Source: Candidatus Woesearchaeota archaeon (lineage in GTDB: Archaea > Nanobdellota > Nanobdellia > UBA10117 > ARS21). From it: a DNA stretch of 64,000 nucleotides. The stretch is from assembly GCA_964344605.1 (NCBI GenBank), contig CAYFNR010000001.1:23439-87438 (forward strand), written 5' to 3'. Every line of letters starts with the position of its first letter. The first letter of the stretch is position 1. Under the pieces are notes generated by a model. It was not told the origin of the DNA. It did not search any database and worked only from the letters and a program-made list of their open reading frames with translations. Below, one piece after another: positions 20,021 to 64,000 of this stretch. The translations under genes and the position numbers were made by a program.

Positions 20021-20049
20021 AGAACAAACCAAACACCAAAACTTAATTG

Positions 20050-20430: not shown

Positions 20431-20527
20431 TAAATAAGAGTAAAATATAAACCTTAAAAAGAGTATTGCTAGTAATGTATGTTTGCCCGCAATATTATTT
20501 AAAAGTCCGAGACGTCAGGGGAGATAT

Positions 20528-48785: not shown

Positions 48786-49393
48786 CTCCAGAATAACCTC
48801 CTCTCTAAAAAAGCTTTAATTAACTTTTTATTAACTCCTTCATTTGGACTGGGTCTTTCTGGGTGCCATATAAATCCCGCGATGGGTTTGTTAGGATGGA
48901 ACAAGCCTTCCACAGTACTATCTTCAGCTATTGCAAAGGGTTTTAATTCTGGAGCCAAACTATTTTTTTGCATCCCATAATCATGAAATGAATTGACCTC
49001 AAATTCTTTACCAATAAGTTCCGCGACCCTTTCTTCAGTGATACTAACTTTGTGATTTTTTGATGTGTGGTTGTCTACTTCTACAAGTTTTCCTCCAAAG
49101 AATAGGTTAATGAATTCAATACCTTTACATATACCTAAAATTGGTATATTCTTTTCCAAAGCTTTTTTTACAAGTTTAGACTCTGTTTCATCTCTGGCTT
49201 GTGTTGCTTCGCCCCCACTTAGAATAATACCTTGAACTGGAAGGGCAAGGTACTCCTCAGTAAGTCCTGGTACATTAGGTACAGGGATTAGTGTTACTCC
49301 AAACGATTTGAAATATTCAACATACGGCCTTTCTAGGTAGTCTACTGTATTGTACATTTCTTTTCTCGATCGCTGAGATATTAAGATCAGCAT
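48782..49393 (-). CDS. Class-I glutamine amidotransferase-like / peptidase C26 hydrolase (Cj1417-like candidate)
   Basis: 203 aa with the nucleophile elbow LGICKGIEFIN, plus NSFHDYG and the GFIWHPE His/Glu region. Confidence 0.8.
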   Translation of the reverse strand: MLILISQRSRKEMYNTVDYLERPYVEYFKSFGVTLIPVPNVPGLTEEYLALPVQGIILSGGEATQARDETESKLVKKALEKNIPILGICKGIEFINLFFGGKLVEVDNHTSKNHKVSITEERVAELIGKEFEVNSFHDYGMQKNSLAPELKPFAIAEDSTVEGLFHPNKPIAGFIWHPERPSPNEGVNKKLIKAFLERRLFWR

Positions 49394-49394
49394 T

Positions 49395-52384: not shown

Positions 52385-53167
52385 ATGGCCGAGAAGAGCC
52401 TGTACCAAATTTATATGAAGGATGGCATGTATCAATCTAATTTAAGAGGCCATAGTCTGTACTTAAAATTTATTCGTTGGTTGGGATTTTTTCCATTTTA
52501 CATATTTCATAAATTAGGTCTCACAGCAAATGCAGCGTCCTTTGTAGGGTTCTTAATAGAATTGCTTGGGGTTGGACTTTTCCTAACGTCACATTATTTT
52601 TTGGCGGCGCTTATGATTTTCATAGGTGTAGTTTTTGATTTCTTTGATGGTGTTCTCGCAAGAACGCGAAATGAAGTTGGAACTCTCAATACAGCCCTAC
52701 TCTGTAGTTTACATCATTTCTTCACACCTACTTTAGTTCTAGCTGCAGGATTTATTAATTACTATTTTTTGACTAAAGATGTTGATGTCCTTTTGCTTGC
52801 TCTTGTTGTAGGGGTGGCTTCTGCCATGACTTTTCAACTTATTATAATACGTGGCAGAGCCCTGTTTAAGTACTATCCTGGCTTTGCAAACAAACAAGAA
52901 GAAGTTCTTGTCAATAGGAGACATAGTATAATATTCAGAACAGAACAGTTGCTGGAGAGAATTATTGATCACGGATATGCTATGATATTAGTATATGCTG
53001 TTAATCCTTTGGTATTCATTGGTCTGTTTTCAATTTTGATACCAGCAAGGCTTTTGAGCGTTTTCACTTATTTTTACTTTACAAACAGGAAACTCGAGAA
53101 GCAACTTGTAAAGTATAAGAAAGAACATACTAAAGGAGAAGGAGGTAGAAAGCTATATAATATTTAG
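52385..53167 (+). CDS. CDP-alcohol phosphatidyltransferase-like membrane protein, divergent motif
   Basis: 260 aa, polytopic. DFFDGVLAR is present, but the downstream GxxxDxxxD is replaced (TRNEVGTLNTALLCSLHH). Confidence 0.65.
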   Translation: MAEKSLYQIYMKDGMYQSNLRGHSLYLKFIRWLGFFPFYIFHKLGLTANAASFVGFLIELLGVGLFLTSHYFLAALMIFIGVVFDFFDGVLARTRNEVGTLNTALLCSLHHFFTPTLVLAAGFINYYFLTKDVDVLLLALVVGVASAMTFQLIIIRGRALFKYYPGFANKQEEVLVNRRHSIIFRTEQLLERIIDHGYAMILVYAVNPLVFIGLFSILIPARLLSVFTYFYFTNRKLEKQLVKYKKEHTKGEGGRKLYNI

Positions 53168-53184: not shown

Positions 53185-54051
53185 ATGGCAGAAGAAAAGA
53201 AAGGAAATCCAACAACTTTTTTAGATTGGGGAAAAACAACTGGAAACCACAGAGTTACATATGCCTATCATGAAGGTCAAGAGGCCTATGATCTGTATAT
53301 GGGTGCAAGATATGTTTGCGATATGATTGCATATCGCAATGGAGAAATAGATAAAGTGTTTCATCCAGAAGACTTAAGAGATAATACCAGAAAATACTCG
53401 GGTCTTGTTGCATGCGATAATGGCTCAGACGAACTTACTTTTTATGAAGTTGGTTCTTCAGTAATGGGTGTTATAGATGCTTTGGAGTATTTGAATATTG
53501 AGTATAACCAACTAGATATCAAAGATACTAAATTCCTTGGAGTTGATAACTCTAAGTGGATGAATGCTGTTGCTGAATATACTCATGAGCAGTACAATTT
53601 AAAATTATGGGAAGATGTAAAAGATGCTGAAGGTGTAGAGTGTGATTTGTTCTTTGCAAAAGGTGTTTCTTTGATGTATGCTTTCCAAGATGAAGACGCC
53701 ATGTGTGACGTGCTAAAAAATAGCAAACTCGCGATATTTGATTACACTTTTTCTTTGGATGGGAAAATACAAGATCATACTGGAACAGGATTAGGAGTTA
53801 CTTATTTGAATTTAGACAAATGTAAAGGAATTCTCGAGAGAGAAAAGGGTAAAATATTGGTGATGAAGCCCTATCAAATCAAAACTTACCATCAAGGAGA
53901 CCCGACTAAAGCCAGTTTTGATTGTATATATGGGGAGAGGGAAATAATTGATAAGTATCTTGCTGATTTAGAAGATAAAACTGGTGAGAATCTATACAAC
54001 TATGGAAATCCAAAGTTCATAAAAGGTGGTAGAGTTTACAACATAGAGTAG
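53185..54051 (+). CDS. Hypothetical soluble protein, possible Rossmann-fold methyltransferase
   Basis: 288 aa, preceded by AAGGTGAT. A weak motif-I-like FYEVGSSVMG is followed by FLGVDNS and CDLFFAKGVSLMYAF. The assignment is tentative. Confidence 0.45.
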   Translation: MAEEKKGNPTTFLDWGKTTGNHRVTYAYHEGQEAYDLYMGARYVCDMIAYRNGEIDKVFHPEDLRDNTRKYSGLVACDNGSDELTFYEVGSSVMGVIDALEYLNIEYNQLDIKDTKFLGVDNSKWMNAVAEYTHEQYNLKLWEDVKDAEGVECDLFFAKGVSLMYAFQDEDAMCDVLKNSKLAIFDYTFSLDGKIQDHTGTGLGVTYLNLDKCKGILEREKGKILVMKPYQIKTYHQGDPTKASFDCIYGEREIIDKYLADLEDKTGENLYNYGNPKFIKGGRVYNIE

Positions 54052-54052
54052 T

Positions 54053-54820
54053 CTACCTCTTCTTTTCTATTTTTTTCAATATATTATATGTAGACTTGAA
54101 AAAAACAACAGATCTAAGTGGTACAAATAATCCGTAAAAGATTAAGTAGGAGCTTGTTATATTATACTCAAAGAAATAAAGCAGCAGGACAACAGTAGTT
54201 ATTTCTCTAAGCCGATATGTTGGAAAGGATGCCAATTTTAGAAGTAGTAAATCTTTTCTATTTGCTAACCCTATTTGAGAAGGAATTGCTTTATGCAGCT
54301 TATATGCGCGTCCTTTAACAGCTTCCGGATTTCTTAAAATTACCAACTGCTTTAATAAGAGTAGAAATCCTGTCGCCAATTGAAAAAAACCAGCAGCAAA
54401 ACCTGCATATAATAGCCAGATATCTCCGCTTAACTTGTAAAAACCAAACCCGAGACCAACAAATATGAAAGAGGGGTTGATATGGTGATATGTTCTTCCT
54501 AAGAATCCACTCTGTAATTTCGTAACACCTTTCCTACACCTCGCAACGAGTCCGTCCATATAATCAAAAAACTCTCCAAAATAAAATAGTAGCAGCCCAA
54601 GTGCAAAGTATATAGGCTTTCCAAAAGCAAAGAATAAGGAAGCCAAGAGTATAATTAATATAGAAAGTAGAGTTACCATGTTGGCCGTTATTGGTGTTTT
54701 TAGAATAGCCCATACACAATATACAGCTATTCTCCTAAAAAATTTATACACGATGCTAACTTTAAAATGTCGATCTCTATTATATGCCTGCTTTTTGATT
54801 TCTCTCACACTAGTTTTCAT
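54053..54820 (-). CDS. CDP-alcohol phosphatidyltransferase-like membrane protein, divergent motif
   Basis: 255 aa, polytopic. ITANMVTLLS and DYMDGLVAR are present, and the second half-motif is replaced (CRKGVTKLQSGFLGRTYHH). Confidence 0.65.
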   Translation of the reverse strand: MKTSVREIKKQAYNRDRHFKVSIVYKFFRRIAVYCVWAILKTPITANMVTLLSILIILLASLFFAFGKPIYFALGLLLFYFGEFFDYMDGLVARCRKGVTKLQSGFLGRTYHHINPSFIFVGLGFGFYKLSGDIWLLYAGFAAGFFQLATGFLLLLKQLVILRNPEAVKGRAYKLHKAIPSQIGLANRKDLLLLKLASFPTYRLREITTVVLLLYFFEYNITSSYLIFYGLFVPLRSVVFFKSTYNILKKIEKKR

Positions 54821-56070
54821 TTGAATAACACGTTGAATTTGCTTTTGTCATATAACCCTTCTGAAACTTTTCCGTCGAAGTCTTTTTTATTGAGTAGCAA
54901 ATGGTGCTCGTTGTGGGAAGTAGAAACTAAATCTCCTACAAAAACCGGGCCCTTACAAACCCTTTGCATTTCTTTCACAACTTTGGACGCGTGCTCTTTA
55001 TCTGGGAAATACTGAAAGATGGAATATGCAAACACTTTATCGAAGCTGTTATCTATAAAAGGCAAAATACTCGCTTCTCCAACCACAACATTATTTTTTA
55101 GTATTTTGTTGTGTTTTTTAACCATAGATTTCGCATAATCCATGCCAATATAGTTACACTTTAAATATTGTGCAATCATGCCTGCTCCACATCCAACTTC
55201 TAAAACTTTATCCTTTTCTTTGATATTGAGGATATCTGTTAGTTCGTTTGCAATTTTTCCGATATTAGCACCAGTTAAATCAAAACCATCGAGCCTGACA
55301 AGATCTGAAGTGTCTTCATTTCCTTTACGCTCCCATATCTCTTTCCAATTGAGCTTGAAGGCTTTTTCCAGTTTAGGATAAGTTATTTCCCTGGCTCTTT
55401 GTAGATCCTCCTGTGTATCTATCTTTGTCCAAATAAGGTCTTCAACACATAGAGAAGATATGGGAGTTCCTTTTTTAGCTAATTTTAAGATACCTTCTTC
55501 AAGCCACAACTTCTTATTATCTCTTATTTTTGCCAGTTCATTAACGAAGTCCTTTGTTAATTTAGATATGCCAATAAATTCACCACTGGATTTGTCCCTG
55601 TTCAAATCTTTTCCTAGATTAGTAATATAATTTGACTCGTCTGTGTACACTAAAATTTCATCTCCAGACCCGCTAATTTTTGAAGTTAATATGATATTTT
55701 CCTCTTTGGCAGATAATATTTTTTTAATGGCACTTGGAGTATATAATAAATCGGATTCAATAACTAGCACAGCATCATCTATCAAATCTTTAGCACAAAG
55801 TAAAGAAAATAAACTATCAGTTTCAAGGTATTCGCTGTTATCAACATAAGTTATCTTTATACTATTATATATATTACCCAATCTTCTTTTAATTTTATCT
55901 CCCAAATATCCTGTAACCAAAATTACTTCATTTATTCCATTATGTAATAGTGACTTAAACGAATAATCTAATAAAGATTCACCTTTAATATCTACCAAAC
56001 ATTTTGGCATGTTGTTTGTGAGAGGGCTAAGTCTCCTTCCTTGCCCCGCGGCAAGAATCACAGTTTTCAT
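54817..56070 (-). CDS. Fusion of a LicC-type nucleotidyltransferase and a class I SAM-dependent methyltransferase
   Basis: N-terminal MKTVILAAGQGRRLSPLTNNMPKCLV. C-terminal motif I VLEVGCGAGMIAQYL and motif II-like FDKVFAYSIFQYF. Confidence 0.85.
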   Translation of the reverse strand: MKTVILAAGQGRRLSPLTNNMPKCLVDIKGESLLDYSFKSLLHNGINEVILVTGYLGDKIKRRLGNIYNSIKITYVDNSEYLETDSLFSLLCAKDLIDDAVLVIESDLLYTPSAIKKILSAKEENIILTSKISGSGDEILVYTDESNYITNLGKDLNRDKSSGEFIGISKLTKDFVNELAKIRDNKKLWLEEGILKLAKKGTPISSLCVEDLIWTKIDTQEDLQRAREITYPKLEKAFKLNWKEIWERKGNEDTSDLVRLDGFDLTGANIGKIANELTDILNIKEKDKVLEVGCGAGMIAQYLKCNYIGMDYAKSMVKKHNKILKNNVVVGEASILPFIDNSFDKVFAYSIFQYFPDKEHASKVVKEMQRVCKGPVFVGDLVSTSHNEHHLLLNKKDFDGKVSEGLYDKSKFNVLFK

Positions 56071-56072: not shown

Positions 56073-57137
56073 CTAGCTAAGGATATCCTCTTTTTTAATA
56101 TCTTTTAAGGCTCCGAGCAGTACTTCATTATCTTTTTTATTTCTTACTCCTAAACGTATAAATGAATCGGTGTCAAACTCTTTCTGGTTCAGACCTTCTT
56201 TTACCATGAGCCTATGATTATCATATAGTGTCTCAGCTAGCTTTCTAGCACTACCTTCAACTTTACAAAATACTGCGTTTGCGCTGGTTGGATAAGGAGT
56301 TAGGTAAGGTATATCATTTAGATTTTCAAGAAACCATTTAGTATCTTCAACACTTTTAACAATAGATTCTTCATGTTCCTCTTTATAATCTGGAAGCATT
56401 TCGATTATATATTCAGTAACTGAGTTTATGTTCCAAATAGGTAAGTGAGCTCTTACTTTCTTTTTTACATTTTCATTGCTCGTAAGCATGTAACCCAACC
56501 TAAGACCTGCAATGCCAATAGATTTCGTACAGCTCGCAACAACAATTAAATTATCATATTTCGATATAAGTTGTTCTGCAGAGTGCTCCGGACCAGCGAA
56601 AGTCATAAACGCTTCGTCAACAATTAAGTTCACTCCAGAGTTTAATATATATTCAATATCCTTTATAGGTGTAAGATTGCCAACAGGATTGTTTGGATTT
56701 ATTATAACGGCGTATTCGCTGTTTGATTCGTTTACTTCTTCTATTAATTTGTTTGGGTCTAAAATGAAATCATTTTCTTCGTCCAAAAGATATTTATGGA
56801 TTTTATCCTCTGGCAATCTCACAAATTCATTGAAAGTAGGCAGTGCGACTGTGACTTTAGTTATCACATGGTCATTAAGCATACGAATGAGTTCAGAGGA
56901 ACCATTTCCTATAACAAGGTTGTCTGCATTGAAGTAATCTTCATCTTTCCATTTAGCAAGTAGTTCTGCTATTACACGCTGACTTGAGGGGTAATAATTC
57001 CCTATTTTTGGCAGTTGGTCCGCCAGCTCCTTATAAAACTCTTTTGTTGGAAAATAGTGATTGAATAAATAGTGAAAGTCCAAGTGGTCATCTCGCCAAT
57101 AACCTCCGTGCCTGCTTCTTATCTCGTCAATTCCCAA
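56073..57137 (-). CDS. Class I/II PLP enzyme of the HisC/CobD type (candidate phospho-amino-acid decarboxylase or aminotransferase)
   Basis: N-terminal HGG, then NPNNPVG, LIVDEAF and the PLP-Lys context SCTKSIGIAGLRLGY. TTG start 2 nt after the upstream stop; there is no ATG until about residue 84. Confidence 0.75.
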   Translation of the reverse strand: MGIDEIRSRHGGYWRDDHLDFHYLFNHYFPTKEFYKELADQLPKIGNYYPSSQRVIAELLAKWKDEDYFNADNLVIGNGSSELIRMLNDHVITKVTVALPTFNEFVRLPEDKIHKYLLDEENDFILDPNKLIEEVNESNSEYAVIINPNNPVGNLTPIKDIEYILNSGVNLIVDEAFMTFAGPEHSAEQLISKYDNLIVVASCTKSIGIAGLRLGYMLTSNENVKKKVRAHLPIWNINSVTEYIIEMLPDYKEEHEESIVKSVEDTKWFLENLNDIPYLTPYPTSANAVFCKVEGSARKLAETLYDNHRLMVKEGLNQKEFDTDSFIRLGVRNKKDNEVLLGALKDIKKEDILS

Positions 57138-57139
57138 GA

Positions 57140-58978
57140 TTAAACACCTTCAAATATTTCCTCTGCCATTTTAAGATCATTTACATCATCAATCTCAAAC
57201 CACTTACCTTTCGTCTCAGGTGCTGAGATTGTACATCCCTTAGTTACGATATTCTTAAAAATTGTTTCAATTGGTTCCGTTCCGCCAGTTTCTTCAATGT
57301 GAGTCTTTAGCTCAGGTTTGAGCCAAGTATTAATGAACTCTTTCGAAAAGCTATGTATATTTACAGTTTTGTATTTGTTCTCAATTTTGAATTCCTCTGG
57401 CCTGTCTTTTTTATGTATCCACGCCTTGACTATCCCATTATCAACTTCCACAAAAGACCCATCTAACTTTGAGTTCCACTTTTCTACCAAGGTTTTGTTC
57501 TTGTGTTTATCATCTATGAACGATTTAAGTAACTTGCTTTCAAAGAAGATGTCACCTTCTAAAATTAACAGATCTTCATCCAAATTTTTTATTCCAATCC
57601 ATAAAGAATAGCTGTTGTTTGTTTTATCATAAATATTACTTTTGATATATTTTATTTTAATCCTTTTAAAGGAATCTCCAATTTTTTCTTGGATTTTGTT
57701 CGCCAAGTATCCTACAACAAGTGTAACTTCGTTGATTCCAAATTCATTTAATCTACTAAGTGTGTTTTCAAGTATTGATTTACCATTTATTTTAACAAGA
57801 CATTTTGGTATATCGTCAGTGACAGGCTTTAAGCGAGTTCCCATGCCAGCAAGTAAAATAATAGCTTTTTTTGGTTTAACCGTTTTTGAAGTAGATGGAC
57901 TAAAACCAACTCTACATAATACTTCTTTAAAATTTTTAAGGAAGCTGTCAATATCTTCTTTGAACAAATTCCCAAGAGTTGCAACTCTAAATATACCTTT
58001 GTCTAAAGTACTTTGTCCGGAGTATATTGTAAAACCTCTCTTTTTCAGTTCGTCGTGTATTACCCAGTAATCCATATCTTTTGGTAAGTGTATTGAAGTG
58101 AGTATATTTGATTGCAAGTTATCTGGGAGTATAAATTTAAACCCCATTTCACGTAGACCTTCGCGCATATACTCCGCGTTTTCTTTCTGCCGTTTAATTC
58201 TGTTCTCTACTCCTTCTTTAATTAGCTCATCAAGTGCTTTGTCCAAGGCAAAAAATAATTGTACAGCTGGAGTAAAAGGTAGCTGCTTACTTTTTTCTGC
58301 ACTTTCCCATTGATTATACAGATTAAAATAGAAACTACGAGATTTACCTTTCAGTTTTTCTATATCACTTTTTTTCGCTATAACAAAAGAGATTCCAGGA
58401 AAACTTTGTAGACATTTATTGGCACTAACAGTACAGAAATTAATATTATCTTTTACTACATCTATTTTATATCCCCCAAGACTGCTGATAGTATCTGCAA
58501 CGGTAATTACACCATATTTTTTGGCCAACTGTCCTAAGTCATGTAGAGGTAGAATCATTCCAGTTGTGGTCTCGTGGTGCACAAAAACCATATGTGTAAT
58601 ATCTGGGTTGGATTCTAACTTTGAGTCTATTTGTCCCAAATCAATTGGTTTTAATGGGTCAAATTTGAGCTCAATTAGAGGTATATTGTAGCGTTCTGTT
58701 ATTTCACCAAGTCTTTTTGCATACTTACCATTATTTATCAGTAAAACTTTTCCGTGAATAGAAGATATAATTGCTTCATTACATCCTGTACCTGATGATA
58801 CGAAAGCAACAACTGAATGAGTCTCTTCACCATTCACAACTTTCAAAAGTTTCTTTCTAACTTTTGTTAAAACCTCAAAGAATTCTGACTCTCTGTGACA
58901 TATATCGTGGGTCTTGATAGCATTTCGGACTCCATTAGAAACATTTGTTGGGCCCGGATTAAAGAGCATATTTTTCAT
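57140..58978 (-). CDS. Fusion of a 2-aminoethylphosphonate:pyruvate aminotransferase-like domain (class V) and a LicC/PntC-type nucleotidyltransferase
   Basis: PhnW-like blocks LFNPGPTNVS, VHHETTTGMILPL, SANKCLQSFPGISFVIA, FRVATLG. The C-terminal half has AIILLAGMGTRLKPVTDDIPKCLVKINGKSIL. The track start at 59020 is TTG; the ATG at 58978 or 58969 is preferred. Confidence 0.85.
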   Translation of the reverse strand: MKNMLFNPGPTNVSNGVRNAIKTHDICHRESEFFEVLTKVRKKLLKVVNGEETHSVVAFVSSGTGCNEAIISSIHGKVLLINNGKYAKRLGEITERYNIPLIELKFDPLKPIDLGQIDSKLESNPDITHMVFVHHETTTGMILPLHDLGQLAKKYGVITVADTISSLGGYKIDVVKDNINFCTVSANKCLQSFPGISFVIAKKSDIEKLKGKSRSFYFNLYNQWESAEKSKQLPFTPAVQLFFALDKALDELIKEGVENRIKRQKENAEYMREGLREMGFKFILPDNLQSNILTSIHLPKDMDYWVIHDELKKRGFTIYSGQSTLDKGIFRVATLGNLFKEDIDSFLKNFKEVLCRVGFSPSTSKTVKPKKAIILLAGMGTRLKPVTDDIPKCLVKINGKSILENTLSRLNEFGINEVTLVVGYLANKIQEKIGDSFKRIKIKYIKSNIYDKTNNSYSLWIGIKNLDEDLLILEGDIFFESKLLKSFIDDKHKNKTLVEKWNSKLDGSFVEVDNGIVKAWIHKKDRPEEFKIENKYKTVNIHSFSKEFINTWLKPELKTHIEETGGTEPIETIFKNIVTKGCTISAPETKGKWFEIDDVNDLKMAEEIFEGV

Positions 58979-59041
58979 TGGCCTAATTTTAGAGTAGTCG
59001 CTTAAAAGGATTTCGCGCAATTATTCTATATTACTCTTCTA

Positions 59042-60691
59042 CTATTCTTTTTGGGACAGCATTTCACAAGCATCTTTATAATTTTGGAAAGTATTCATTT
59101 CTATCCAACCTTCACTAACTTCTTGCGCGTATATGGTATGTCCTTGATTAATCATTTCTTGTAAGGTGTGATCCATATCCAAATTTTTAACTTCACCCTT
59201 TTCCACCAATTTTCTTACAGTATCCTTAAATGAGTTGGTTCCTTTCTTCGAAAGCAAGGTTACTCCACAAAACTCAAAGTTTGCCTCAGTCCTAGGTATG
59301 TCTTGTCCTATTTGAGAAATTATGTTATACTTTCGAGGATTTAGAATCCTAGAACCTTTAATTGGAGAGTATTTAGCAACTACAAGATCTAGTTTTTTGT
59401 CTTTGAATTTGGACTTAGTATAAGATTTATCAATTGATATAGTTATGTCTTTATCACTTTTTAATAACTTTTCAATCAGTTCAGGCTCAAATAAAATGTC
59501 TCCAAAAAGTACCAAAACACGACCTTCCAGTTCTTCTTTGGCAAGCATTATTGAATGTATAGATCCTGAATTTTCATAATCTTCATTAATAATGACGGAA
59601 ACATCTTCAACATCAGAAGCATTTAATCTTTCATGATTATATCCTGCTACTAAGATTATCTTCGTTATTCCTAAGCTTTTCAGACCCTCTATATTCCGTT
59701 TTAGTAAAGATTTACCATTTATGTCAAGTAATGCCAAAGGAGTTTCTGGCAAAACATGTGCTAGGGATTTTGGTGGACGCCCCGCGATAGGTATTATTGC
59801 AGTAATAGACTCTTTGTCTAATCCTAGAAACCGTTCTTCATTAGCCTTCATTTCATAAGTTCCTTGTAGCTCAAACACCTCTTTTAACGTAGCTAGTTTT
59901 GGGCTGACTGTTTTTACTCCACCAGATATTTGTATCTCATCCAGAGTTTCCTTAACGGATTTTATTATAGAACGCATTACGTGATTTGCATAAATTACCA
60001 TTTTTATTTTAGGGTATCTTGATATCATTTTTTCATCCATGCCTGAGTATGTTGTTGGCACAATTACTAGTGGCACGTTTTTATCCCATTTCTTTACGAA
60101 CTCTATTATCTCTGTAGGGTCAGATTTTTTAGAATGTATCATTATACCATCAACACCAGCTTCAACGTACGCCTTCGCGCGTTTCATTGCTTCTTCTTGT
60201 CCCCAGCCTGCAATCAAAGCTTCTACTCTTGCTATGACCATAAACTCTTTTGTTTCCTGTGCGTTTTTTGCCGCCATTATCTTTCCAACAAATTCAGAAA
60301 CAGAGGCCAGTTCTTGTCTGCCGCCAGCAAGTAAACTATTTTGCTTTGGAAATTTTTTATCTTCCATGATGACCCCGGCGATTCCAGCAGCTTCAAACTT
60401 TTTAATCATCCTTATCACATTCATGGAATTACCATATCCTTGATCAACGTCCACGACCACAGGTATTGATACAGCATCGTTCATACTTATAGCAGCATTC
60501 AGATAGTCAGTCATAGTTAAGATATTTGCATCTGGGACTGCATGAGATGCCGATACTTCCAAAGAGGATGCCCAAACACCTTCGAATCCACCCCCCTCTA
60601 CTAATTTAGCAGTGGCTCCGTTGTGAGCACCAACAATCCGAATTAACTTTTCACTTGCAAATAATTCTCTTAGTGCAGCTGCTTTATTCAT
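59042..60691 (-). CDS. pepM: Phosphoenolpyruvate mutase fused to a C-terminal (divergent) nucleotidyltransferase domain
   Basis: IVGAHNGATAKLVE, VDVDQGYGN, and the PepM-discriminating EDKX5NS motif as EDKKFPKQNS (codons 60335-60364). The C-terminal ~250 aa is LicC-like with a degenerate G-loop (PIAGRPPKSL). Confidence 0.9.
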   Translation of the reverse strand: MNKAAALRELFASEKLIRIVGAHNGATAKLVEGGGFEGVWASSLEVSASHAVPDANILTMTDYLNAAISMNDAVSIPVVVDVDQGYGNSMNVIRMIKKFEAAGIAGVIMEDKKFPKQNSLLAGGRQELASVSEFVGKIMAAKNAQETKEFMVIARVEALIAGWGQEEAMKRAKAYVEAGVDGIMIHSKKSDPTEIIEFVKKWDKNVPLVIVPTTYSGMDEKMISRYPKIKMVIYANHVMRSIIKSVKETLDEIQISGGVKTVSPKLATLKEVFELQGTYEMKANEERFLGLDKESITAIIPIAGRPPKSLAHVLPETPLALLDINGKSLLKRNIEGLKSLGITKIILVAGYNHERLNASDVEDVSVIINEDYENSGSIHSIMLAKEELEGRVLVLFGDILFEPELIEKLLKSDKDITISIDKSYTKSKFKDKKLDLVVAKYSPIKGSRILNPRKYNIISQIGQDIPRTEANFEFCGVTLLSKKGTNSFKDTVRKLVEKGEVKNLDMDHTLQEMINQGHTIYAQEVSEGWIEMNTFQNYKDACEMLSQKE

Positions 60692-60710
60692 GCGCCGAAA
60701 TCTTTGATAA

Positions 60711-60725
60711 ATGTATATAAGTATT
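60711..60725 (-). promoter_or_regulatory. TATA-box candidate for the pepM operon
   Basis: The minus strand reads aatacttatatacat, with TATA ending about 22 nt upstream of the pepM ATG (leaderless-type spacing). Confidence 0.35.
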
Positions 60726-60739
60726 ATGAAAACGAAGTC

Positions 60740-61444
60740 TCATTTATTTTTCATAGACTTCTTATCATATTTTAATACAGTTCTTAATTGCATTGCTAGA
60801 ATTACTATCCAAAATAAATTACCAAATGTTGCAAAGAAAATTAGAATCCATTCTGCTAAATTAAGTGCTACCAATATTGGCAGGAACACAAATAGTGTAG
60901 ATGTCCCATATACAAACCGCAGTTTGTTCTTTTTATTTATCAATTTTATTTTTCTCTTTGACAGTAAAGGATCAAAATCATATTTGAAAATATAAATTAT
61001 AAGAAATTGTAGTGGGAAGCATATTGCTGCTAGTGTTCCCCAAAGTAGCCAAGTATATTCTCTTAGTCCTAAAGCTACAGACAGGAAAATAAAAGGCAAT
61101 GATAAGTATCCAATCATACTGTCCAGCCACTTACCTTTCAGGCTTGATAATTTCATTACTCTAGCCATTTTTCCATCGAGGTGATCCAAAATGTAAGTCA
61201 AGAAAATTAAAATAGCACCGAGTAGTCTGTAGGTATAAGGGTTGTTGCTGAAGCCACTAAAACCTAAAAATGCCAGACCACCAATCATTACAAAAATTGA
61301 AAGATAAGTTATTTGATTTGGAGTTATACTTGTATATCTGAGCATAAATTTGGTTAAAGGTATGGTTACTTTCCTAAATAAATATCCCAAAATATCAGTT
61401 TCTTTGTTTTTAACCATTAGCTTCAAGTCATATTTTTTCTTCAT
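60740..61444 (-). CDS. CDP-alcohol phosphatidyltransferase family membrane protein
   Basis: 234 aa, polytopic. The motif DHLDGKMARVMKLSSLKGKWLDSMIG matches DxxDGxxARx8GxxxD but has Gly in place of the final Asp. Confidence 0.7.
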   Translation of the reverse strand: MKKKYDLKLMVKNKETDILGYLFRKVTIPLTKFMLRYTSITPNQITYLSIFVMIGGLAFLGFSGFSNNPYTYRLLGAILIFLTYILDHLDGKMARVMKLSSLKGKWLDSMIGYLSLPFIFLSVALGLREYTWLLWGTLAAICFPLQFLIIYIFKYDFDPLLSKRKIKLINKKNKLRFVYGTSTLFVFLPILVALNLAEWILIFFATFGNLFWIVILAMQLRTVLKYDKKSMKNK

Positions 61445-61531
61445 ATCACAGTGTTTGAGTAGGGTTATTTAAGTCTAGTGAAACGAATTTCCCTTCATAA
61501 TACTTTTATTTTCTATCAAAAAAGTTCTACT

Positions 61532-62542
61532 ATGCTAAACTATGGTTTGATTGGATGTGGATCTGTGGGAAAAGTACATTGTCATCATTTCTCAGAAGAC
61601 GAAAGAATTAGCAGAGTGGTTGTGTGCGATACAAGCCAGCTAGCTTTAAATTATTTTAGAGAGAATTTTAAAATAGATGAAGTTTATTCTGACTACAAGA
61701 AGATGTTGGAAGAGGAGGACTTAGATATAGTTTCTGTCGCGACCCCTCCAGGATATCATTTAGAACACGCTAATGCCGCAGCATTTAGTGGGTCCCATGT
61801 ACTGTGTGAGAAACCCCTTGCTGCAACATTGGACGACTCAATTGAGATTGTTGAGTACTTCAAAAAACAAGGATTAAAATTGGGAGTCATGATGCCTCGT
61901 AGATTTTATAATAACAGCCAAGTTTTGAAGGACGCCCTGGACAATGGCGCGCTTGGAGATATAACTCAAGTACAGCTTAACTTCAAAGCGAATAAAGACA
62001 AATTTTACTATAGAGGATGGAGGGCCAGAAAGTCTGAGGCCGGAGGTGGCATATTACCTAGCCAAATGATTCACTCTTTAGACCGCTTGATATTTTTGTT
62101 TGGTAAACCGGTTAAAGTTGAAGGTATGGTTCGGACAACCCGTAATTATTTAGAAATTGAAGATGAAGTGGACGCAAAAATATGGTTTGATAATGGTGTT
62201 GAGGCAGAGATAACAGGTACAAATAACTCTGACCAGAACTGGAGGGATCCATTATATATTGGTGGGGAGAAGGGCATGGCAGTTATAGAGTCTTGCGAAA
62301 CTTTTGGATGGAGAGTTCCAGGTTTTGATAGACCAGAAGTCGACGAAAGAGATGATATCCCTCGGAGATTTAAGAATGAATACTATGGTCCTGGACATGA
62401 AGGTGTGATTGAGGATTTTATATCATCAGTAATTGAAGACAGAGAACCGAAAATAACTGCTGAACAGTCTTTGGATGTGCTCAAAGTAATATTTGGCATA
62501 TATAGGGCGTCTGAGGAAGGAAAAGCAGTTAATTTAGTTTAG
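61532..62542 (+). CDS. Gfo/Idh/MocA family oxidoreductase
   Basis: GLIGCGSVGKVH Rossmann motif and the CEKPLA motif. The track start at 61478 is GTG; the ATG at 61532 is preferred. Confidence 0.85.
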   Translation: MLNYGLIGCGSVGKVHCHHFSEDERISRVVVCDTSQLALNYFRENFKIDEVYSDYKKMLEEEDLDIVSVATPPGYHLEHANAAAFSGSHVLCEKPLAATLDDSIEIVEYFKKQGLKLGVMMPRRFYNNSQVLKDALDNGALGDITQVQLNFKANKDKFYYRGWRARKSEAGGGILPSQMIHSLDRLIFLFGKPVKVEGMVRTTRNYLEIEDEVDAKIWFDNGVEAEITGTNNSDQNWRDPLYIGGEKGMAVIESCETFGWRVPGFDRPEVDERDDIPRRFKNEYYGPGHEGVIEDFISSVIEDREPKITAEQSLDVLKVIFGIYRASEEGKAVNLV

Positions 62543-63291
62543 TCGTCTCCATAATACTCTTTCTCATAAACCTTGAAATCGTGACCCGGCAAAATAAAAT
62601 CTGAATTTGTTTTTATCTTTTCAAAACTTTCCCAAGTACCAATTATGTCCATATAGCGTCCTATCATCGTAAATTTGGCACGCTTTTTTTCGTCAAACTG
62701 AAAGTTTTCATAAGACATGACAGCATCTCCACAGATACAGTATGTTCCTTTATTTGTGTCAACCAAAACTGACTGATGGCCAGGAGAATGTCCATAAGTT
62801 GCTATTACTTTAACACCAGGAGTGATTTCCGCATCCCCATCTATTAGTTCAAATTTCGTATTTTTCCAAGATGGTTCTATATTGTTTTTGTTGAAGTCGT
62901 AGGAGTTCCAGTAAGGCGGAATTGGTTTTTTTGCAAATTCCAATTCTTTTCTCTGAACATAGAATTTAGCGTTGATGAACTTGTCATGGTTTGCACAGTG
63001 GTCCCAATGTAAGTGAGTAAAAATAACAATGTCAATTTCCTCCGGAGAAATCCCTGCTACTTTCTTCAACGATAAATCAATCCTTTCATTTGGGCCCTGT
63101 ACGGAATCAGGATAGTTTGTTGCATTTTCGCTGCTACACATTCCTGTATCAACCAATATTTTCTTTTCACTCGTAAGTATGAGCCATGCAGTAGATGGAA
63201 CATAAATTGTTTTATCCAAGTCTTTTCCAAGAGTTATAGTCATGCCTTTATTGCATTTAATCTGCCCAGTTTTTATTGGAATAATTTTCAT
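62539..63291 (-). CDS. Metallo-beta-lactamase-fold hydrolase
   Basis: 250 aa with HLHWDH (HxHxDH), plus downstream His/Asp ligands (YGHSPGH, CGDA, PGHD). Confidence 0.85.
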   Translation of the reverse strand: MKIIPIKTGQIKCNKGMTITLGKDLDKTIYVPSTAWLILTSEKKILVDTGMCSSENATNYPDSVQGPNERIDLSLKKVAGISPEEIDIVIFTHLHWDHCANHDKFINAKFYVQRKELEFAKKPIPPYWNSYDFNKNNIEPSWKNTKFELIDGDAEITPGVKVIATYGHSPGHQSVLVDTNKGTYCICGDAVMSYENFQFDEKKRAKFTMIGRYMDIIGTWESFEKIKTNSDFILPGHDFKVYEKEYYGDD

Positions 63292-63332
63292 ATCTTAGAA
63301 AGTGTTAAAAGCTTGAGCACTTCTTAAAAATT

Positions 63333-63953
63333 ATGAAACTCTATATTGTTAGGCATGGAGAAACCACAGCCAACGTCGACGATGTTCTTCAAGGACAACT
63401 TCCAGGTGCTCTCAATGATTTAGGATATAAACAGGCAGAATTAATTGCGAAGACTCTCAAGGATATAAAATTTGATATTATCTTGTCTAGCGATCTAAAA
63501 AGGGCAAAAGATACGGCAGATGAAATAGCAAAGTTTCATACTTGTCCCTATAAGACCAACAGGAATTTGAGAGAAAGGCATTTTGGAGTCTATCAAGGCA
63601 AAGACAGAACACCTTTTTACGAAAGTGAAAGGGGGTCGAAAAATCCTTACTTACACAAGCCAAAAGAAGGAGAAAGTTTTACTGACCTTTACAACCGGGC
63701 CAAAAAGTTCTTGAATAAATTGGAGAAAGAGTACAGTACTAAAGTTGTGTTATTGGTTTCGCATGGAGATATAACAAGAATGATTCTGGGAGTCCTCTTA
63801 GGTAAGGACGTTGAAGGAGCATCTCAAGTAAAGCAATCAAATGCATGCATAAATATTCTTGAAGTAGGTAAAAATCTTAAGAGCAAGGTTGTAGAGTTAA
63901 ACTCAACAGAACATCTTGGAGAATTTGTGAGTCATAATCCTTCTGAAATCTAA
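63333..63953 (+). CDS. Histidine phosphatase (phosphoglycerate-mutase superfamily)
   Basis: LYIVRHGETTAN RHG motif, RERHFG, and a VSHGD second His. Confidence 0.85.
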   Translation: MKLYIVRHGETTANVDDVLQGQLPGALNDLGYKQAELIAKTLKDIKFDIILSSDLKRAKDTADEIAKFHTCPYKTNRNLRERHFGVYQGKDRTPFYESERGSKNPYLHKPKEGESFTDLYNRAKKFLNKLEKEYSTKVVLLVSHGDITRMILGVLLGKDVEGASQVKQSNACINILEVGKNLKSKVVELNSTEHLGEFVSHNPSEI

Positions 63954-64000
63954 GTTAAAAGCTTGTTTAACTCTTTCTCTAGATCATCCGCACCTGTAAA

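What the first reader, a model, noticed from the sequence alone, without database searches (positions are those of the whole stretch)
56073..60691. PEP-mutase phosphonate module without a phosphonopyruvate decarboxylase; a CobD-like PLP enzyme sits where the driving step should be
Seen: pepM carries the diagnostic EDKKFPKQNS (EDKX5NS) motif and is followed, operon-style, by two genes. The first is a PhnW-like class V aminotransferase fused to a LicC/PntC-type nucleotidyltransferase. The second is a HisC/CobD-type class I/II PLP enzyme with N-terminal HGG and the SCTKS...GLRLGY Lys context. No ORF in the 64-kb window has a thiamine-diphosphate enzyme pattern. Established: the PepM equilibrium lies far toward PEP, so an exergonic follow-up step is required. 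This is usually the TPP-dependent Ppd, encoded next to pepM. Known alternatives are phosphonomethylmalate synthase, phosphonopyruvate reduction, or transamination to phosphonoalanine. CobD-type enzymes decarboxylate O-phospho-threonine or O-phospho-serine, including in Campylobacter capsule loci. LicC-like PntC enzymes make CMP-2-AEP. Inference: a TPP-independent route is possible, running phosphonopyruvate -> (transaminase) phosphonoalanine -> (CobD-like decarboxylase) 2-aminoethylphosphonate -> CMP-AEP. Phosphonoalanine is an analogue of phosphoserine lacking the ester oxygen.
Basis: partly seen in the sequence, partly recalled or inferred. Interest (0 to 1): 0.78.

Follow-up and report, generated by a model that had tools for sequence, protein, structure and literature searches.

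The report
Phosphonate pathway without the usual decarboxylase
An archaeal gene cluster that makes carbon-phosphorus compounds lacks the usual thiamine-dependent decarboxylase and carries a vitamin-B6 decarboxylase-like enzyme with a nucleotide-attaching partner instead; the same pairing next to the C-P bond-forming gene recurs in other microbes, which points to an undescribed route to a very common natural phosphonate.

Summary
Window 56073-60691 (- strand) holds three tightly packed genes:
- PepM (EDKKFPKQNS motif) fused to a divergent nucleotidyltransferase (NTase).
- An AEP-transaminase-family class V aminotransferase fused to a canonical LicC-type NTase.
- A stand-alone CobD/HisC-fold PLP enzyme.

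No TPP enzyme or Ppd homologue lies in the 64 kb window or in 10 kb beyond it.

New evidence:
- The closest relatives of the CobD-like protein (66-73% identity) are ~600-aa fusions of an N-terminal NTase and a C-terminal CobD-like domain. This is the architecture of FrbH, which cytidylylates and then decarboxylates an amino-phosphonate.
- Their NTase is the orthologue of the window's aminotransferase-fused NTase.
- PepM is within 10 kb of the CobD-like gene, usually directly adjacent, in 12 of 13 informative loci of this CobD-like clade and in 0 of 25 other NTase-linked relatives. None of the 12 has Ppd.
- Cultured rhizobial plasmids carry PepM, an NTase and a CobD-like gene; Mesorhizobium loti also has an AspAT-type transaminase there.

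Best reading: phosphonopyruvate -> phosphonoalanine -> CMP-phosphonoalanine -> CMP-2-AEP, then methylation and transfer to lipid or glycan. The route is inferred from genomics, not shown biochemically. I rate it a new variant of a known kind.

The parts
60740..61444 (-). CDP-alcohol phosphatidyltransferase-family membrane protein, 48 nt upstream of pepM on the same strand. It is a candidate head-group transferase.
   Evidence: PF01066 E 1.7e-10. Weak BLAST matches to it (25-42% identity, 46-77 bits) lie beside the module in L093, L095 and L097. CDP-OH_P_transf genes called by Pfam flank it in L006 and L177. The canonical Mycetohabitans AEP cluster also has one.
59816..60691 (-). PEP mutase domain (aa 1-~292 of the 549-aa protein). 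It makes phosphonopyruvate.
   Evidence: PF13714 E 2e-54. TIGR02320 scores 304 bits, just under the 319.55 cut-off. The EDKKFPKQNS motif has N, not the T seen in phosphonopyruvate hydrolase.
59045..59815 (-). C-terminal NTase domain fused to PepM. It is the common PepM-fused type, but its signature is degenerate here.
   Evidence: PF12804 E 3e-9. It is the best window match (90.5 bits) for the NTase fused to Mycetohabitans aepX. The GxGxRL loop reads AGRPPKSL, and the conserved PK lysine is Leu, as it is in L006. That lysine is essential in FrbH and YgbP (Rice 2019).
57881..59020 (-). Class V aminotransferase domain of the AEP-transaminase family. Its proposed role is phosphonopyruvate -> phosphonoalanine.
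   Evidence: TIGR03301 scores 395.6 bits, above the 360.8 cut-off. It matches PhnW 9KK8 and 1M32 and Tde1415 6PD1 at E 1e-57 to 1e-63, with the SANK lysine and the FR(V/I) arginine conserved. Orthologues of 51-70% identity sit in 8 other PepM/CobD-like loci.
57143..57880 (-). Canonical LicC/PntC-type NTase domain, fused here to the aminotransferase. It is the orthologue of the N-terminal NTase of the NTase-CobD-like fusions. Its proposed role is cytidylylation of the amino-phosphonate.
   Evidence: PF00483 E 1e-13. The signature ILLAGMGTRL...IPKCLV is intact. It is the best window match (49-56% identity, 240-270 bits, against 122 bits or less for the other NTases) for the NTase half of the ten closest fused homologues (66-73% CobD-like identity), and the best match for all ~50. 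It is 35% identical to the B. cereus FrbH-like N-terminal domain.
56073..57137 (-). Stand-alone CobD/HisC-fold PLP enzyme. Its proposed role is (CMP-)phosphonoalanine decarboxylase, which replaces Ppd as the irreversible step.
   Evidence: PF00155 matches. TIGR01140 CobD scores 141 bits and TIGR01141 HisC 126 bits, both below their cut-offs. The best solved relative is the SMUL_1544 decarboxylase 6OUX. The AF2 model has pLDDT 95, with TM 0.87 to CobD 1LC8. K205, D174, N150, R213, R328 and the N-terminal (H/Y)GGYWR motif are conserved. The gene belongs to the PepM-linked clade.
55336..56070 (-). Third LicC-type NTase domain, at the N-terminus of the 417-aa protein.
   Evidence: PF00483 E 2e-14. 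The signature is canonical.
54820..55335 (-). Class I SAM methyltransferase domain. Its proposed role is N-methylation of the aminoethylphosphonate head group.
   Evidence: PF08241 E 2e-15. Stand-alone homologues of 45-51% identity directly follow, or in L109 directly precede, NTase-CobD-like fusions in Lacrimispora and other loci. It has weak PDB similarity to plant phosphoethanolamine N-methyltransferase.
54053..54820 (-). CDP-alcohol phosphatidyltransferase-family membrane protein. It overlaps the previous gene by 4 nt.
   Evidence: PF01066 E 5e-7. It has weak similarity to archaetidylinositol phosphate synthase.
53185..54051 (+). Uncharacterised 288-aa protein with a methyltransferase-like fold. 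It is an accessory to this module or to the neighbouring phosphoramidate-like module.
   Evidence: No Pfam or PDB sequence match was found. It has 94 homologues, many on the same contigs as CobD-like homologues. Homologues of 63% and 53% identity lie in L004 and L005. The AF2 model has pLDDT 92 and a class I SAM-MTase fold.
52385..53167 (+). Third CDP-alcohol phosphatidyltransferase-family protein.
   Evidence: PF01066 E 6e-5.

Best explanation
**Proposal.** The cluster makes a 2-aminoethylphosphonate (AEP) head group without phosphonopyruvate decarboxylase (Ppd).

**Proposed steps**
1. PepM converts PEP to phosphonopyruvate.
2. The class V aminotransferase, or a housekeeping transaminase in clusters that lack it, makes L-phosphonoalanine.
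3. The canonical NTase, fused to the aminotransferase here and to the CobD-like domain in relatives, makes CMP-phosphonoalanine from CTP.
4. The CobD-like PLP enzyme decarboxylates this to CMP-AEP. PPi release and CO2 loss together pull the unfavourable PepM equilibrium.
5. The NTase-methyltransferase protein and the CDP-alcohol phosphatidyltransferase-family proteins then methylate the head group and transfer it to a lipid or glycan acceptor.

This is the FrbH (FR-900098) cytidylylate-then-decarboxylate logic applied to the three-carbon phosphonate.

**What is shown and what is inferred.** Shown: domain identities, absence of Ppd, the fusion pattern and the conserved synteny. Inferred: every substrate and the order of steps 3 and 4.
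For: **No Ppd**
- No TPP or Ppd gene lies in the 64 kb window or in 10 kb beyond its 3' end.
- No Ppd lies within 10 kb of any of 12 PepM-linked loci.

**Fusion pattern**
- About 50 homologues are N-terminal NTase plus C-terminal CobD-like fusions.
- Their NTase is orthologous to the window's aminotransferase-fused NTase.
- The same genes occur as AT|NTase-CobD (L004, L095, L175), as AT|NTase|CobD (L006, L092, L093, L177, L178) and as AT-NTase|CobD (window).

**FrbH precedent**
- FrbH is described as an N-terminal cytidylyltransferase plus a C-terminal decarboxylase. It acts on 2-amino-4-phosphonobutyrate (PMC8976061; PMC6697681).
- A B. cereus plasmid gene with this FrbH-like architecture is 32-35% identical to both window domains.

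**Clade-specific link to PepM**
- All PepM-linked sequences fall in one NJ clade.
- 12 of 13 informative loci in the clade have PepM, against 0 of 25 outside it. Fisher p = 5e-9, not corrected for phylogeny.
- The clade has its own near-invariant residues, for example A176 where relatives have S (56/56) and Q318 where relatives have K (52/54).

**Minimal clusters**
- L008 has PepM-NTase | NTase-CobD | LicD.
- Bradyrhizobium has PepM | NTase | CDP-OH PT | CobD-like.

**Phosphonoalanine as intermediate**
- M. loti has PepM | AspAT-type aminotransferase | NTase | CobD-like. The aminotransferase is 32% identical to Variovorax PalB.
- PnaA-type enzymes are proven phosphonopyruvate transaminases that couple to PepM (PMC11867202).

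**Order of steps**
- The Agrobacterium pAt2 cluster has orthologous PepM, aminotransferase and NTase (72% identity) but no decarboxylase. The NTase there must therefore accept a non-decarboxylated phosphonate.

**Decarboxylase rather than transaminase**
- The nearest solved relative is the SMUL_1544 decarboxylase, and the highest TM-score is to CobD.
- Partners such as LicD, CDP-alcohol transferases, a methyltransferase and TauD fit an ethanolamine-like product.
Against: - No activity has been measured for any of the proteins.
- The fold does not separate decarboxylases from HisC-type transaminases. TM is 0.87 against 0.83-0.84, and the NCBIfam CobD and HisC scores are close and both below their cut-offs.
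- By sequence the class V aminotransferase is a normal AEP transaminase whose known keto substrate is phosphonoacetaldehyde. It passes TIGR03301 and keeps the phosphonate-binding arginine. Its use of phosphonopyruvate is assumed.
- Only about 74 kb of the genome was seen, so a distant Ppd is possible.
- One clade member (L096) has no PepM within 10 kb.
- FrbH's own sequence could not be obtained, so homology to it is indirect.
- The rhizobial CobD-like proteins are only 33% identical to the window's and lie outside its clade.
Confidence: 0.55

Rival explanations
1. Free phosphonoalanine is decarboxylated by the CobD-like enzyme to free 2-AEP. A PntC-type NTase then activates 2-AEP to CMP-AEP.
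For: - Characterised PntC enzymes prefer AEP (PMC6697681).
- Tde1415 (PDB 6PD1) is a fusion of an NTase and an AEP transaminase, so an aminotransferase-NTase fusion need not imply a phosphonoalanine-specific NTase.
- CobD and SMUL_1544 act on free phospho-amino acids.
- The genomic evidence for a Ppd bypass fits this order equally well.
Against: - The NTase is physically fused to the decarboxylase domain in about 50 relatives, as in FrbH, where cytidylylation comes first.
- The orthologous NTase in Agrobacterium works in a cluster with no decarboxylase at all.
- Most clusters already carry a second, PepM-fused NTase of the usual kind that could serve AEP.
Confidence: 0.22
2. The CobD-like protein is a HisC/PalB-like aminotransferase. 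It makes phosphonoalanine, which is cytidylylated and transferred as such. The product would be a phosphono-analogue of a serine head group, and no AEP would be made by this module.
For: - It belongs to PF00155, the Pfam family used to call PalB-like branch points (PMC8942020).
- It scores almost as well against HisC as against CobD.
- Clusters without a class V aminotransferase (L005, L008, L009) would then still have a transaminase.
Against: - The window and 8 other loci already have a dedicated aminotransferase.
- M. loti carries both an AspAT-type transaminase and the CobD-like gene.
- The best sequence and structural neighbours are decarboxylases.
- FrbH-type fusions are decarboxylases.
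- Methyltransferase, LicD and TauD partners suit an amine product.
- BLAST at E <= 1e-3 found no similarity between Variovorax PalB and the window protein.
Confidence: 0.1
3. The NTase plus CobD-like pair is an independent module that turns phosphoserine or phosphothreonine into a CDP-ethanolamine-like or CDP-aminopropanol-like donor. It lies next to pepM by coincidence. AEP is made the canonical way with a Ppd encoded elsewhere.
For: - Relatives of 30-47% identity occur without PepM, next to LicD, a methyltransferase or CDP-alcohol transferases.
- The aminotransferase looks like a normal AEP transaminase that needs phosphonoacetaldehyde.
- Only about 74 kb of the genome was inspected.
Against: - The PepM linkage is clade-specific and nearly universal within the clade. 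It occurs in archaea and in several bacterial backgrounds.
- Three- and four-gene clusters have nothing else to pull the PepM equilibrium.
- Ppd, when present, is normally in the pepM neighbourhood. It is found in about 83% of neighbourhoods (PMC8942020).
- The clade carries its own conserved substitutions at otherwise invariant positions.
Confidence: 0.08

Closest known systems
FrbH of FR-900098 biosynthesis (Streptomyces rubellomurinus)
   Same: - Both pair a LicC/MobA-type NTase with a CobD-like PLP domain.
- In about 50 orthologues of the window protein the two are fused in the same N-to-C order as in FrbH.
- Both act in a PepM-derived pathway on an alpha-amino phosphonate.
   Different: - FrbH's substrate is the four-carbon 2-amino-4-phosphonobutyrate. 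It is made after chain extension by FrbC, FrbA, FrbB and FrbE. No homocitrate-synthase or aconitase genes are present here.
- In the window the NTase is fused to the upstream aminotransferase and not to the decarboxylase.
- The context is cell-surface or lipid tailoring, not an antibiotic cluster.
- Direct sequence comparison with FrbH was not possible. A B. cereus plasmid gene with the same architecture is 32-35% identical.
Canonical AEP pathway PepM-Ppd-AEPT with PntC (for example Mycetohabitans aepXY, Treponema denticola Tde1413-1415)
   Same: - Both have PepM fused to an NTase, an AEP-transaminase-family enzyme and LicC-type NTases.
- Both have CDP-alcohol phosphatidyltransferase and LPG-synthase-like genes nearby.
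- An aminotransferase-NTase fusion also exists in Tde1415 (6PD1).
   Different: - Ppd is missing.
- An NTase plus CobD-like pair sits between the aminotransferase and the tailoring genes.
- The domain order of the aminotransferase-NTase fusion is reversed compared with Tde1415.
CobD (L-threonine-O-3-phosphate decarboxylase) and SMUL_1544 (decarboxylase in norcobamide biosynthesis)
   Same: - The fold is the same (TM 0.80-0.87).
- The PLP lysine, aspartate and arginine residues are conserved.
- An N-terminal HGG-type motif is present.
- SMUL_1544 is the best-scoring solved relative.
   Different: - Identity is only 24-27%, and the score is below the TIGR01140 cut-off.
- There is no cobamide gene context.
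- The protein has an obligate NTase partner.
- The presumed substrate is a phosphonate one atom shorter than phosphoserine, probably as its CMP conjugate.
PalB/PnaA phosphonopyruvate transaminase branch point
   Same: - Both are Ppd-independent.
- Phosphonoalanine is the first committed intermediate.
- M. loti and Agrobacterium clusters use an AspAT-type enzyme of this kind.
   Different: - In known cases phosphonoalanine is the end building block (phosphonoalamides) or a catabolic intermediate.
- Here it is proposed to be carried on to AEP.
- The window uses a class V aminotransferase in place of the AspAT type.

Membership tests
PEP mutase (PepM/AepX) | Isocitrate-lyase/PEP-mutase fold (PF13714). 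| tested here: met
   E 2e-54 over residues 7-253.
PEP mutase (PepM/AepX) | EDKxxxxxNS active-site motif, with Asn and not the Thr of phosphonopyruvate hydrolase. | tested here: met
   The window has EDKKFPKQNS. Variovorax PalA has EDKTFPKDTS.
PEP mutase (PepM/AepX) | NCBIfam TIGR02320 equivalog cut-off. | tested here: not met
   The score is 304.4 bits against a cut-off of 319.55. It ties with the phosphonopyruvate hydrolase model, which has a cut-off of 374.4. The motif and the biosynthetic context favour PepM.
AEP transaminase (PhnW/AepZ, class V) | TIGR03301 equivalog cut-off, PLP lysine and phosphonate-binding arginine. | tested here: met
   The score is 395.6 bits, above 360.8. The SANK lysine and the FRV arginine align with PhnW 9KK8 and Tde1415 6PD1.
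AEP transaminase (PhnW/AepZ, class V) | A source of phosphonoacetaldehyde (Ppd) in the pathway. | tested here: not met
   No Ppd is present in the window or in related loci.
Phosphonopyruvate decarboxylase (Ppd/AepY) | A TPP_enzyme_N/C protein encoded near pepM. | tested here: not met
   Pfam scans of the non-shadow ORFs of at least 120 aa found none. tblastn with Ppd from three phyla, which detect one another at E 1e-8 to 1e-57, gave no hit at E <= 1. None lies in the next 10 kb.
CobD (L-Thr-P decarboxylase, TIGR01140) | Equivalog score and cobamide-biosynthesis context. | tested here: not met
   The score is 141 bits against a cut-off of 290.55. Pfam found no cob or cbi genes in the window.
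CobD (L-Thr-P decarboxylase, TIGR01140) | Fold type I CobD/HisC subgroup fold with PLP-binding Lys, Asp and Arg. | tested here: met
   The AF2 model has pLDDT 95, with TM 0.87 to 1LC8 and 0.80-0.83 to 6OUX. K205, D174, R213 and R328 are invariant.
HisC (histidinol-phosphate aminotransferase, TIGR01141) | Equivalog score and histidine-biosynthesis context. | tested here: not met
   The score is 126 bits against a cut-off of 276.55. No his genes are in the window.
FrbH-type bifunctional cytidylyltransferase/decarboxylase | N-terminal NTase joined to a C-terminal CobD-like PLP domain. | tested here: inconclusive
   This is met in about 50 orthologues. In the window the two domains are adjacent genes 2 nt apart, and the NTase is fused to the upstream aminotransferase.
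FrbH-type bifunctional cytidylyltransferase/decarboxylase | Sequence homology to FrbH itself. | not testable with these tools
   The FrbH sequence and the Johannes 2010 paper were not available. A proxy exists: a B. cereus plasmid protein of the same architecture, encoded beside DXR and an AAC(3)-family N-acetyltransferase, is 32% and 35% identical to the two window domains.
FrbH-type bifunctional cytidylyltransferase/decarboxylase | Cytidylylation of an amino-phosphonate followed by decarboxylation of the CMP conjugate. | not testable with these tools
   This needs enzyme assays.
PalB/PnaA phosphonopyruvate transaminase (AspAT-type PF00155) | AspAT-subgroup similarity. | tested here: not met
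   BLAST at E <= 1e-3 found no match between Variovorax PalB and the window CobD-like protein. The M. loti AspAT-type aminotransferase matches it only at E 7e-4.

The most novel reading that the evidence does not exclude
The PepM-linked CobD-like clade may be a dedicated (CMP-)phosphonoalanine decarboxylase. With its NTase partner it would give a TPP-independent route to 2-aminoethylphosphonate. That route would be a fifth way to pull the PepM equilibrium. It would also realise the phosphonoalanine-decarboxylation route considered in early work on Tetrahymena (from my own knowledge). It would operate in DPANN-type archaea, in uncultured bacteria and, through a sister lineage, in cultured rhizobia. 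The clade would be one branch of a larger unrecognised family of cytidylylate-then-decarboxylate head-group synthases. The PepM-less members of that family would make CDP-ethanolamine-like or CDP-choline-like donors from phospho-amino acids.
Probability: 0.5. Interest if true: 0.78.

Novelty: new variant of a known kind. Interest (0 to 1): 0.66.

Why it matters
AEP is the most common natural phosphonate. Genome mining for it assumes the trio pepM, ppd and an AEP transaminase.

A Ppd-independent, PLP- and CTP-driven route would have several consequences:
- It would add a new early branch point.
- It would change how pepM neighbourhoods are classified. In the 2022 inventory, clusters like this one fall into the bin 'PF00155, no Ppd = phosphonoalanine'.
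- It would extend phosphonate head-group synthesis to small-genome DPANN-type archaea.
- It would give a testable function to a large family of unannotated NTase-'HisC-like' fusion proteins.

Cultured strains carry related clusters (Mesorhizobium loti 582, Bradyrhizobium sp. 187), so the idea can be tested directly.

Tried and rejected
**Leads checked and set aside**
- The TPP-motif regex gave one hit (19126-19209). It lies inside Cdc6/Orc1 and is a chance match.
- The unknown 288-aa gene (53185-54051) was considered as a possible non-TPP decarboxylase. Its AF2 model has a class I SAM-methyltransferase fold, and homologues also accompany a PepM-less phosphoramidate-like module. It was rejected.
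- A 603-aa TPP enzyme lies 6.4 kb from the CobD-like gene in L177. It is a three-domain acetolactate-synthase-like protein inside a sugar-nucleotide sub-cluster and is not similar to Ppd (E 0.18). It was rejected as a Ppd.
- The GFO/IDH/MocA oxidoreductase (61478-62542) was considered as a phosphonopyruvate reductase. It is not conserved in related loci.

**Searches that gave nothing**
- No phosphonomethylmalate synthase, aconitase or 2-hydroxyacid dehydrogenase was found in the window.
- The FrbH primary paper (PMC2819980) and the PhnW specificity paper (PMC135204) are not held.
- The FrbH sequence was not obtainable.
- Literature searches for a phosphonoalanine decarboxylase or for CMP-phosphonoalanine found nothing.
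- The exact-sequence cluster look-up gave no names.
- The project accession is not mentioned in any held paper.
- A repeat scan of the cdc6-polD intergenic region found only weak repeats.
- There are no tRNA or Rfam hits in the window.

Full report
**1. Observation**

Three ORFs lie at the stated coordinates on the minus strand:
- 60691..59042, 549 aa
- 59020..57140, 626 aa
- 57137..56073, 354 aa

The gaps between them are 21 nt and 2 nt.

The unit continues downstream. After a further 2-nt gap comes an NTase-methyltransferase gene (56070..54817). A CDP-alcohol phosphatidyltransferase gene (54820..54053) overlaps it by 4 nt. Another gene of that family lies 48 nt upstream of pepM (61444..60740).

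Three other metagenome assemblies carry the same arrangement, with the proteins compared 99-100% identical (L001-L003). The aminotransferase-NTase fusion is therefore not an assembly artefact.

**2. Gene identities**

*Gene 1: PepM plus a C-terminal NTase.*
- PepM matches PF13714 at E 2e-54.
- It scores 304 bits against TIGR02320, just under the 319.55 cut-off.
- Its motif has Asn where Variovorax phosphonopyruvate hydrolase has Thr.
- The C-terminal NTase is PF12804. Such fusions are common, about 60% of PepMs (PMC6697681).
- The NTase signature is degenerate here. The lysine that is essential in FrbH and YgbP is Leu.

*Gene 2: aminotransferase plus NTase.*
- The N-terminal part is an AEP-transaminase-family class V aminotransferase. 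It scores 395.6 bits against TIGR03301, above the 360.8 cut-off.
- It matches solved PhnW structures and Tde1415 at E 1e-57 to 1e-63. The PLP lysine and the phosphonate-binding arginine are conserved.
- The C-terminal part is a canonical LicC/PntC-type NTase.

*Gene 3: the CobD-like PLP enzyme.*
- It is a fold type I PLP enzyme of the CobD/HisC subgroup.
- It is a member of neither curated family. CobD scores 141 bits and HisC 126 bits, both below their cut-offs.
- Its best solved relative, by sequence and by profile, is 6OUX, the SMUL_1544 decarboxylase.
- The AlphaFold model (pLDDT 95) has TM 0.87 to Salmonella CobD and 0.83-0.84 to HisC.
- The PLP machinery (K205, D174, N150, R213), R328 and the N-terminal (H/Y)GGYWR segment are conserved across 34 homologues.

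**3. No Ppd**

- Pfam scans covered the non-shadow ORFs of at least 120 aa, all except 63333-63953, which the contig tables list as His_Phos_1. They found no TPP enzyme.
- Ppd references from Bacillus, Mycetohabitans and Fulvitalea plasmids detect one another at E 1e-8 to 1e-57. They hit nothing in the window at E <= 1.
- The 10 kb beyond the 3' end encodes an NTase-kinase-HAD protein, glycosyltransferases, STT3/AglB, SpoIIM and SecD.
- Other known PepM-coupling enzymes are also absent. These are the homocitrate-synthase-like, citrate-synthase-like and 2-hydroxyacid-dehydrogenase types.

**4. Host organism**

The host is an archaeon. It encodes PolD, Cdc6, CDC48, LonB and AglB. Named relatives of its PolD large subunit are Woesearchaeota, DPANN or Nanoarchaeota.

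**5. The decisive comparison: NTase-CobD-like fusions**

- Of the 120 best homologues of the CobD-like protein, about 50 are proteins of ~600 aa. They have an N-terminal NTase and a C-terminal CobD-like domain. They include ten of the twelve closest after the self-match (66-73% identity).
- In every one of them, the NTase half matches the window's aminotransferase-fused NTase best. For the ten closest fusions the figures are 49-56% identity and 240-270 bits. The other three LicC-type NTases in the window reach at most 122 bits against any fusion.
- The same four functions therefore occur in three arrangements:
  - AT | NTase-CobD in L004, L095 and L175
  - AT | NTase | CobD in L006, L092, L093, L177 and L178
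  - AT-NTase | CobD in the window

- NTase plus CobD-like decarboxylase is the architecture of FrbH. FrbH cytidylylates 2-amino-4-phosphonobutyrate and then decarboxylates the CMP conjugate (PMC8976061; PMC6697681).
- A B. cereus plasmid gene of this architecture sits beside DXR and an AAC(3)-family N-acetyltransferase. It is 32% and 35% identical to the two window domains.

**6. Distribution**

Scans of genome and metagenome collections returned 160 loci.
- The NTase/CobD-like pairing persists down to about 30% identity.
- PepM is nearby only in one neighbour-joining clade.
- Counting loci with informative flanks, 12 of 13 clade members have PepM. These are the window, L004, L005, L006, L008, L009, L092, L093, L095, L175, L177 and L178.
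- The exception is L096. A fourteenth clade member, L103, is a 1.5 kb contig and uninformative.
- 0 of 25 other NTase-linked loci have PepM. Fisher p = 5e-9, not corrected for shared ancestry.
- The flanking genes mark some of these 12 loci as archaeal and others as bacterial.
- None of them has a Ppd.
- Nine of the 12 have the class V aminotransferase. L005, L008 and L009 do not.
- L008 is minimal: PepM-NTase | NTase-CobD | LicD.
- L005 adds a TauD-type oxygenase. It may hydroxylate AEP, by analogy with PhnY* (my inference).
- The clade has its own near-invariant residues at positions that are otherwise conserved: A176 for S (56/56), Q318 for K (52/54), S80 for A and T204 for S. This fits a changed substrate.

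**7. Cultured organisms**

- *Mesorhizobium loti* 582 plasmid: aepX | AspAT-type aminotransferase (32% identical to Variovorax PalB) | NTase | CobD-like.
- *Bradyrhizobium* sp. 187 plasmid: aepX | NTase | CDP-alcohol phosphatidyltransferase | CobD-like.
- *Agrobacterium tumefaciens* pAt2: orthologous PepM, aminotransferase (73% identity) and NTase (72% identity), plus an oxidoreductase and a CDP-alcohol transferase. It has no decarboxylase of either kind.
- tblastn found no Ppd in the M. loti or Bradyrhizobium loci. The gene table for the Agrobacterium locus lists none.

Two points follow.
- An AspAT-type enzyme, the family proven to make phosphonoalanine and to couple with PepM (PMC11867202), occupies the slot held by the class V aminotransferase in the window. 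This supports phosphonoalanine as the intermediate.
- The Agrobacterium NTase must accept a non-decarboxylated phosphonate. This favours cytidylylation before decarboxylation.

These rhizobial CobD-like proteins are only 33% identical to the window's. They represent a second PepM-linked lineage. The M. loti and Bradyrhizobium PepMs read EDT/EDS...NS in place of EDK...NS.

**8. Proposed mechanism**

1. PEP -> phosphonopyruvate, by PepM.
2. Phosphonopyruvate -> L-phosphonoalanine, by the class V aminotransferase or a housekeeping transaminase.
3. L-phosphonoalanine -> CMP-phosphonoalanine, by the canonical NTase.
4. CMP-phosphonoalanine -> CMP-AEP + CO2, by the CobD-like enzyme.
5. N-methylation by the methyltransferase domain. 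Stand-alone homologues of 45-51% identity directly flank PepM-less fusions.
6. Transfer by CDP-alcohol phosphatidyltransferase-family proteins.

Transamination alone is freely reversible. PPi release and decarboxylation would supply the pull. The domain identities, the absence of Ppd, the fusions and the synteny are shown. All substrates and the order of steps 3 and 4 are inferred.

**9. Rival explanations**

It is the main alternative.
- *A transaminase role for the CobD-like protein* is disfavoured. Dedicated transaminases sit in the same clusters, the nearest solved relatives are decarboxylases, and the partner genes suit an amine product.
- *An unrelated phospho-amino-acid module with a distant Ppd* is disfavoured by the clade-specific linkage and by the minimal clusters. 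It cannot be excluded without whole genomes.

The main tension in my reading is the class V aminotransferase. By sequence it looks like an ordinary AEP transaminase, and its known keto substrate is phosphonoacetaldehyde.

**10. Literature and novelty**

- The 2022 inventory of branch points lists seven enzymes and no such decarboxylase. It assigns 'PF00155 without Ppd' to PalB-like phosphonoalanine formation, so clusters like this one would be hidden in that bin (PMC8942020).
- A January 2026 preprint still lists only the decarboxylase (Ppd), an aminotransferase, a 2-hydroxyacid dehydrogenase and a homocitrate-synthase-like enzyme as PepM-coupling steps (PMC12871164).
- Searches for a phosphonoalanine decarboxylase or for CMP-phosphonoalanine returned nothing relevant.
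- The held library is incomplete, so prior description elsewhere cannot be ruled out.
- The chemistry has a direct precedent in FrbH. I therefore rate this a new variant of a known kind, not a new category.

**11. Caveats**

- There is no biochemistry.
- The trees are neighbour-joining trees on limited samples.
- The linkage counts are not phylogenetically independent.
- Only about 74 kb of this genome was examined.
- FrbH itself was not compared.

Noticed in passing
window 48006-52271 (- strand), plus 44296-45495: Three genes resemble the Campylobacter O-methyl-phosphoramidate pathway (Cj1416-1418). They are an NTase, a GATase/C26 protein and a 958-aa protein. The GATase/C26 protein scores 99 bits against NF045546 gamma-glutamyl-CDP-amidate hydrolase, below the cut-off. 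The 958-aa protein has a cytidylyltransferase domain followed by PPDK_N and PEP-utilizer domains (NF004508, 846 bits). The same trio occurs in L176. The 399-aa ORF at 44296-45495 has weak P-loop/APS-kinase-like hits. An archaeal phosphoramidate surface modification would be unusual.
   Followed up: partly
window 53185-54051 (+): This 288-aa protein belongs to a 94-member family with no Pfam or PDB sequence match. Its confident AF2 model (pLDDT 92) has a class I SAM-methyltransferase fold. The family is fused to a PF01467 cytidylyltransferase in L175. Members lie in PepM/CobD-like clusters (L004, L005, L175) and beside the phosphoramidate-like module without PepM (L176).
   Followed up: yes
L010, L020-L030, L096, L109, L112, L123 and others: NTase-CobD-like fusions without PepM are widespread. 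They occur in Lacrimispora, Dehalococcoidia, Patescibacteria, Aquificales, Nostoc and Nanoarchaeota. They sit next to a small methyltransferase, LicD or a CDP-alcohol phosphatidyltransferase. In Lacrimispora sinapis the fusion and the methyltransferase form an isolated two-gene unit. These may make CDP-ethanolamine-like or CDP-choline-like donors from a phospho-amino acid, a route I could not find described.
   Followed up: partly
L179 (Bacillus cereus plasmid NZ_CP053657.2, 141-149 kb): A fused NTase-CobD-like gene with FrbH-like architecture lies beside a DXR gene, an AAC(3)-family N-acetyltransferase, an ACP, an aaRS-like gene and an ATP-grasp gene. This looks like a fosmidomycin/FR-900098-type cluster carrying a resistance copy of the target enzyme. 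No PepM was seen within 8 kb in the incomplete gene table.
   Followed up: no
L183 (Agrobacterium tumefaciens pAt2, NZ_CP048517.1): The cluster is PepM | AspAT-type aminotransferase | NTase | NAD(P) oxidoreductase | 400-aa CDP-alcohol phosphatidyltransferase. It has neither Ppd nor a CobD-like gene. It may make a phosphonoalanine-type lipid head group.
   Followed up: partly
L174 (sample ERZ930061), equivalent to window 57607-64000: This is the same locus at 99.98% nucleotide identity. The aminotransferase gene is split near residue 97 by a single difference. That is either an assembly error or a strain with a disrupted aminotransferase.
   Followed up: partly
window 59045-59815 (NTase domain fused to PepM): The nucleotide-binding signature is degenerate. 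It reads AGRPPKSL, and the conserved PK lysine is Leu. The same is true in the archaeal relative L006, while other PepM-fused NTases keep the lysine. The domain may be inactive or may have another role.
   Followed up: partly
L177 13308-15119: A 603-aa three-domain TPP enzyme of the acetolactate-synthase-like type lies between a sugar NTase/dehydratase pair and a B12-radical SAM gene. It is 6.4 kb from a PepM/CobD-like module. It is probably a branched-sugar enzyme. It is not similar to Ppd.
   Followed up: partly
window 17118-23989: The genes cdc6/orc1 and PolD small subunit (both - strand) and PolD large subunit (+ strand) are clustered. A 710-nt AT-rich gap (19774-20482) lies between cdc6 and the PolD large-subunit gene, a typical place for an archaeal replication origin. 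Only weak repeats were found there.
   Followed up: partly
window 37506-38990; L006, L092, L178: B12-binding radical SAM genes recur near the PepM/CobD-like modules, with two or three copies in L006 and L178. By analogy with Fom3, which methylates a CMP-phosphonate, they may C-methylate the CMP-bound head group.
   Followed up: no
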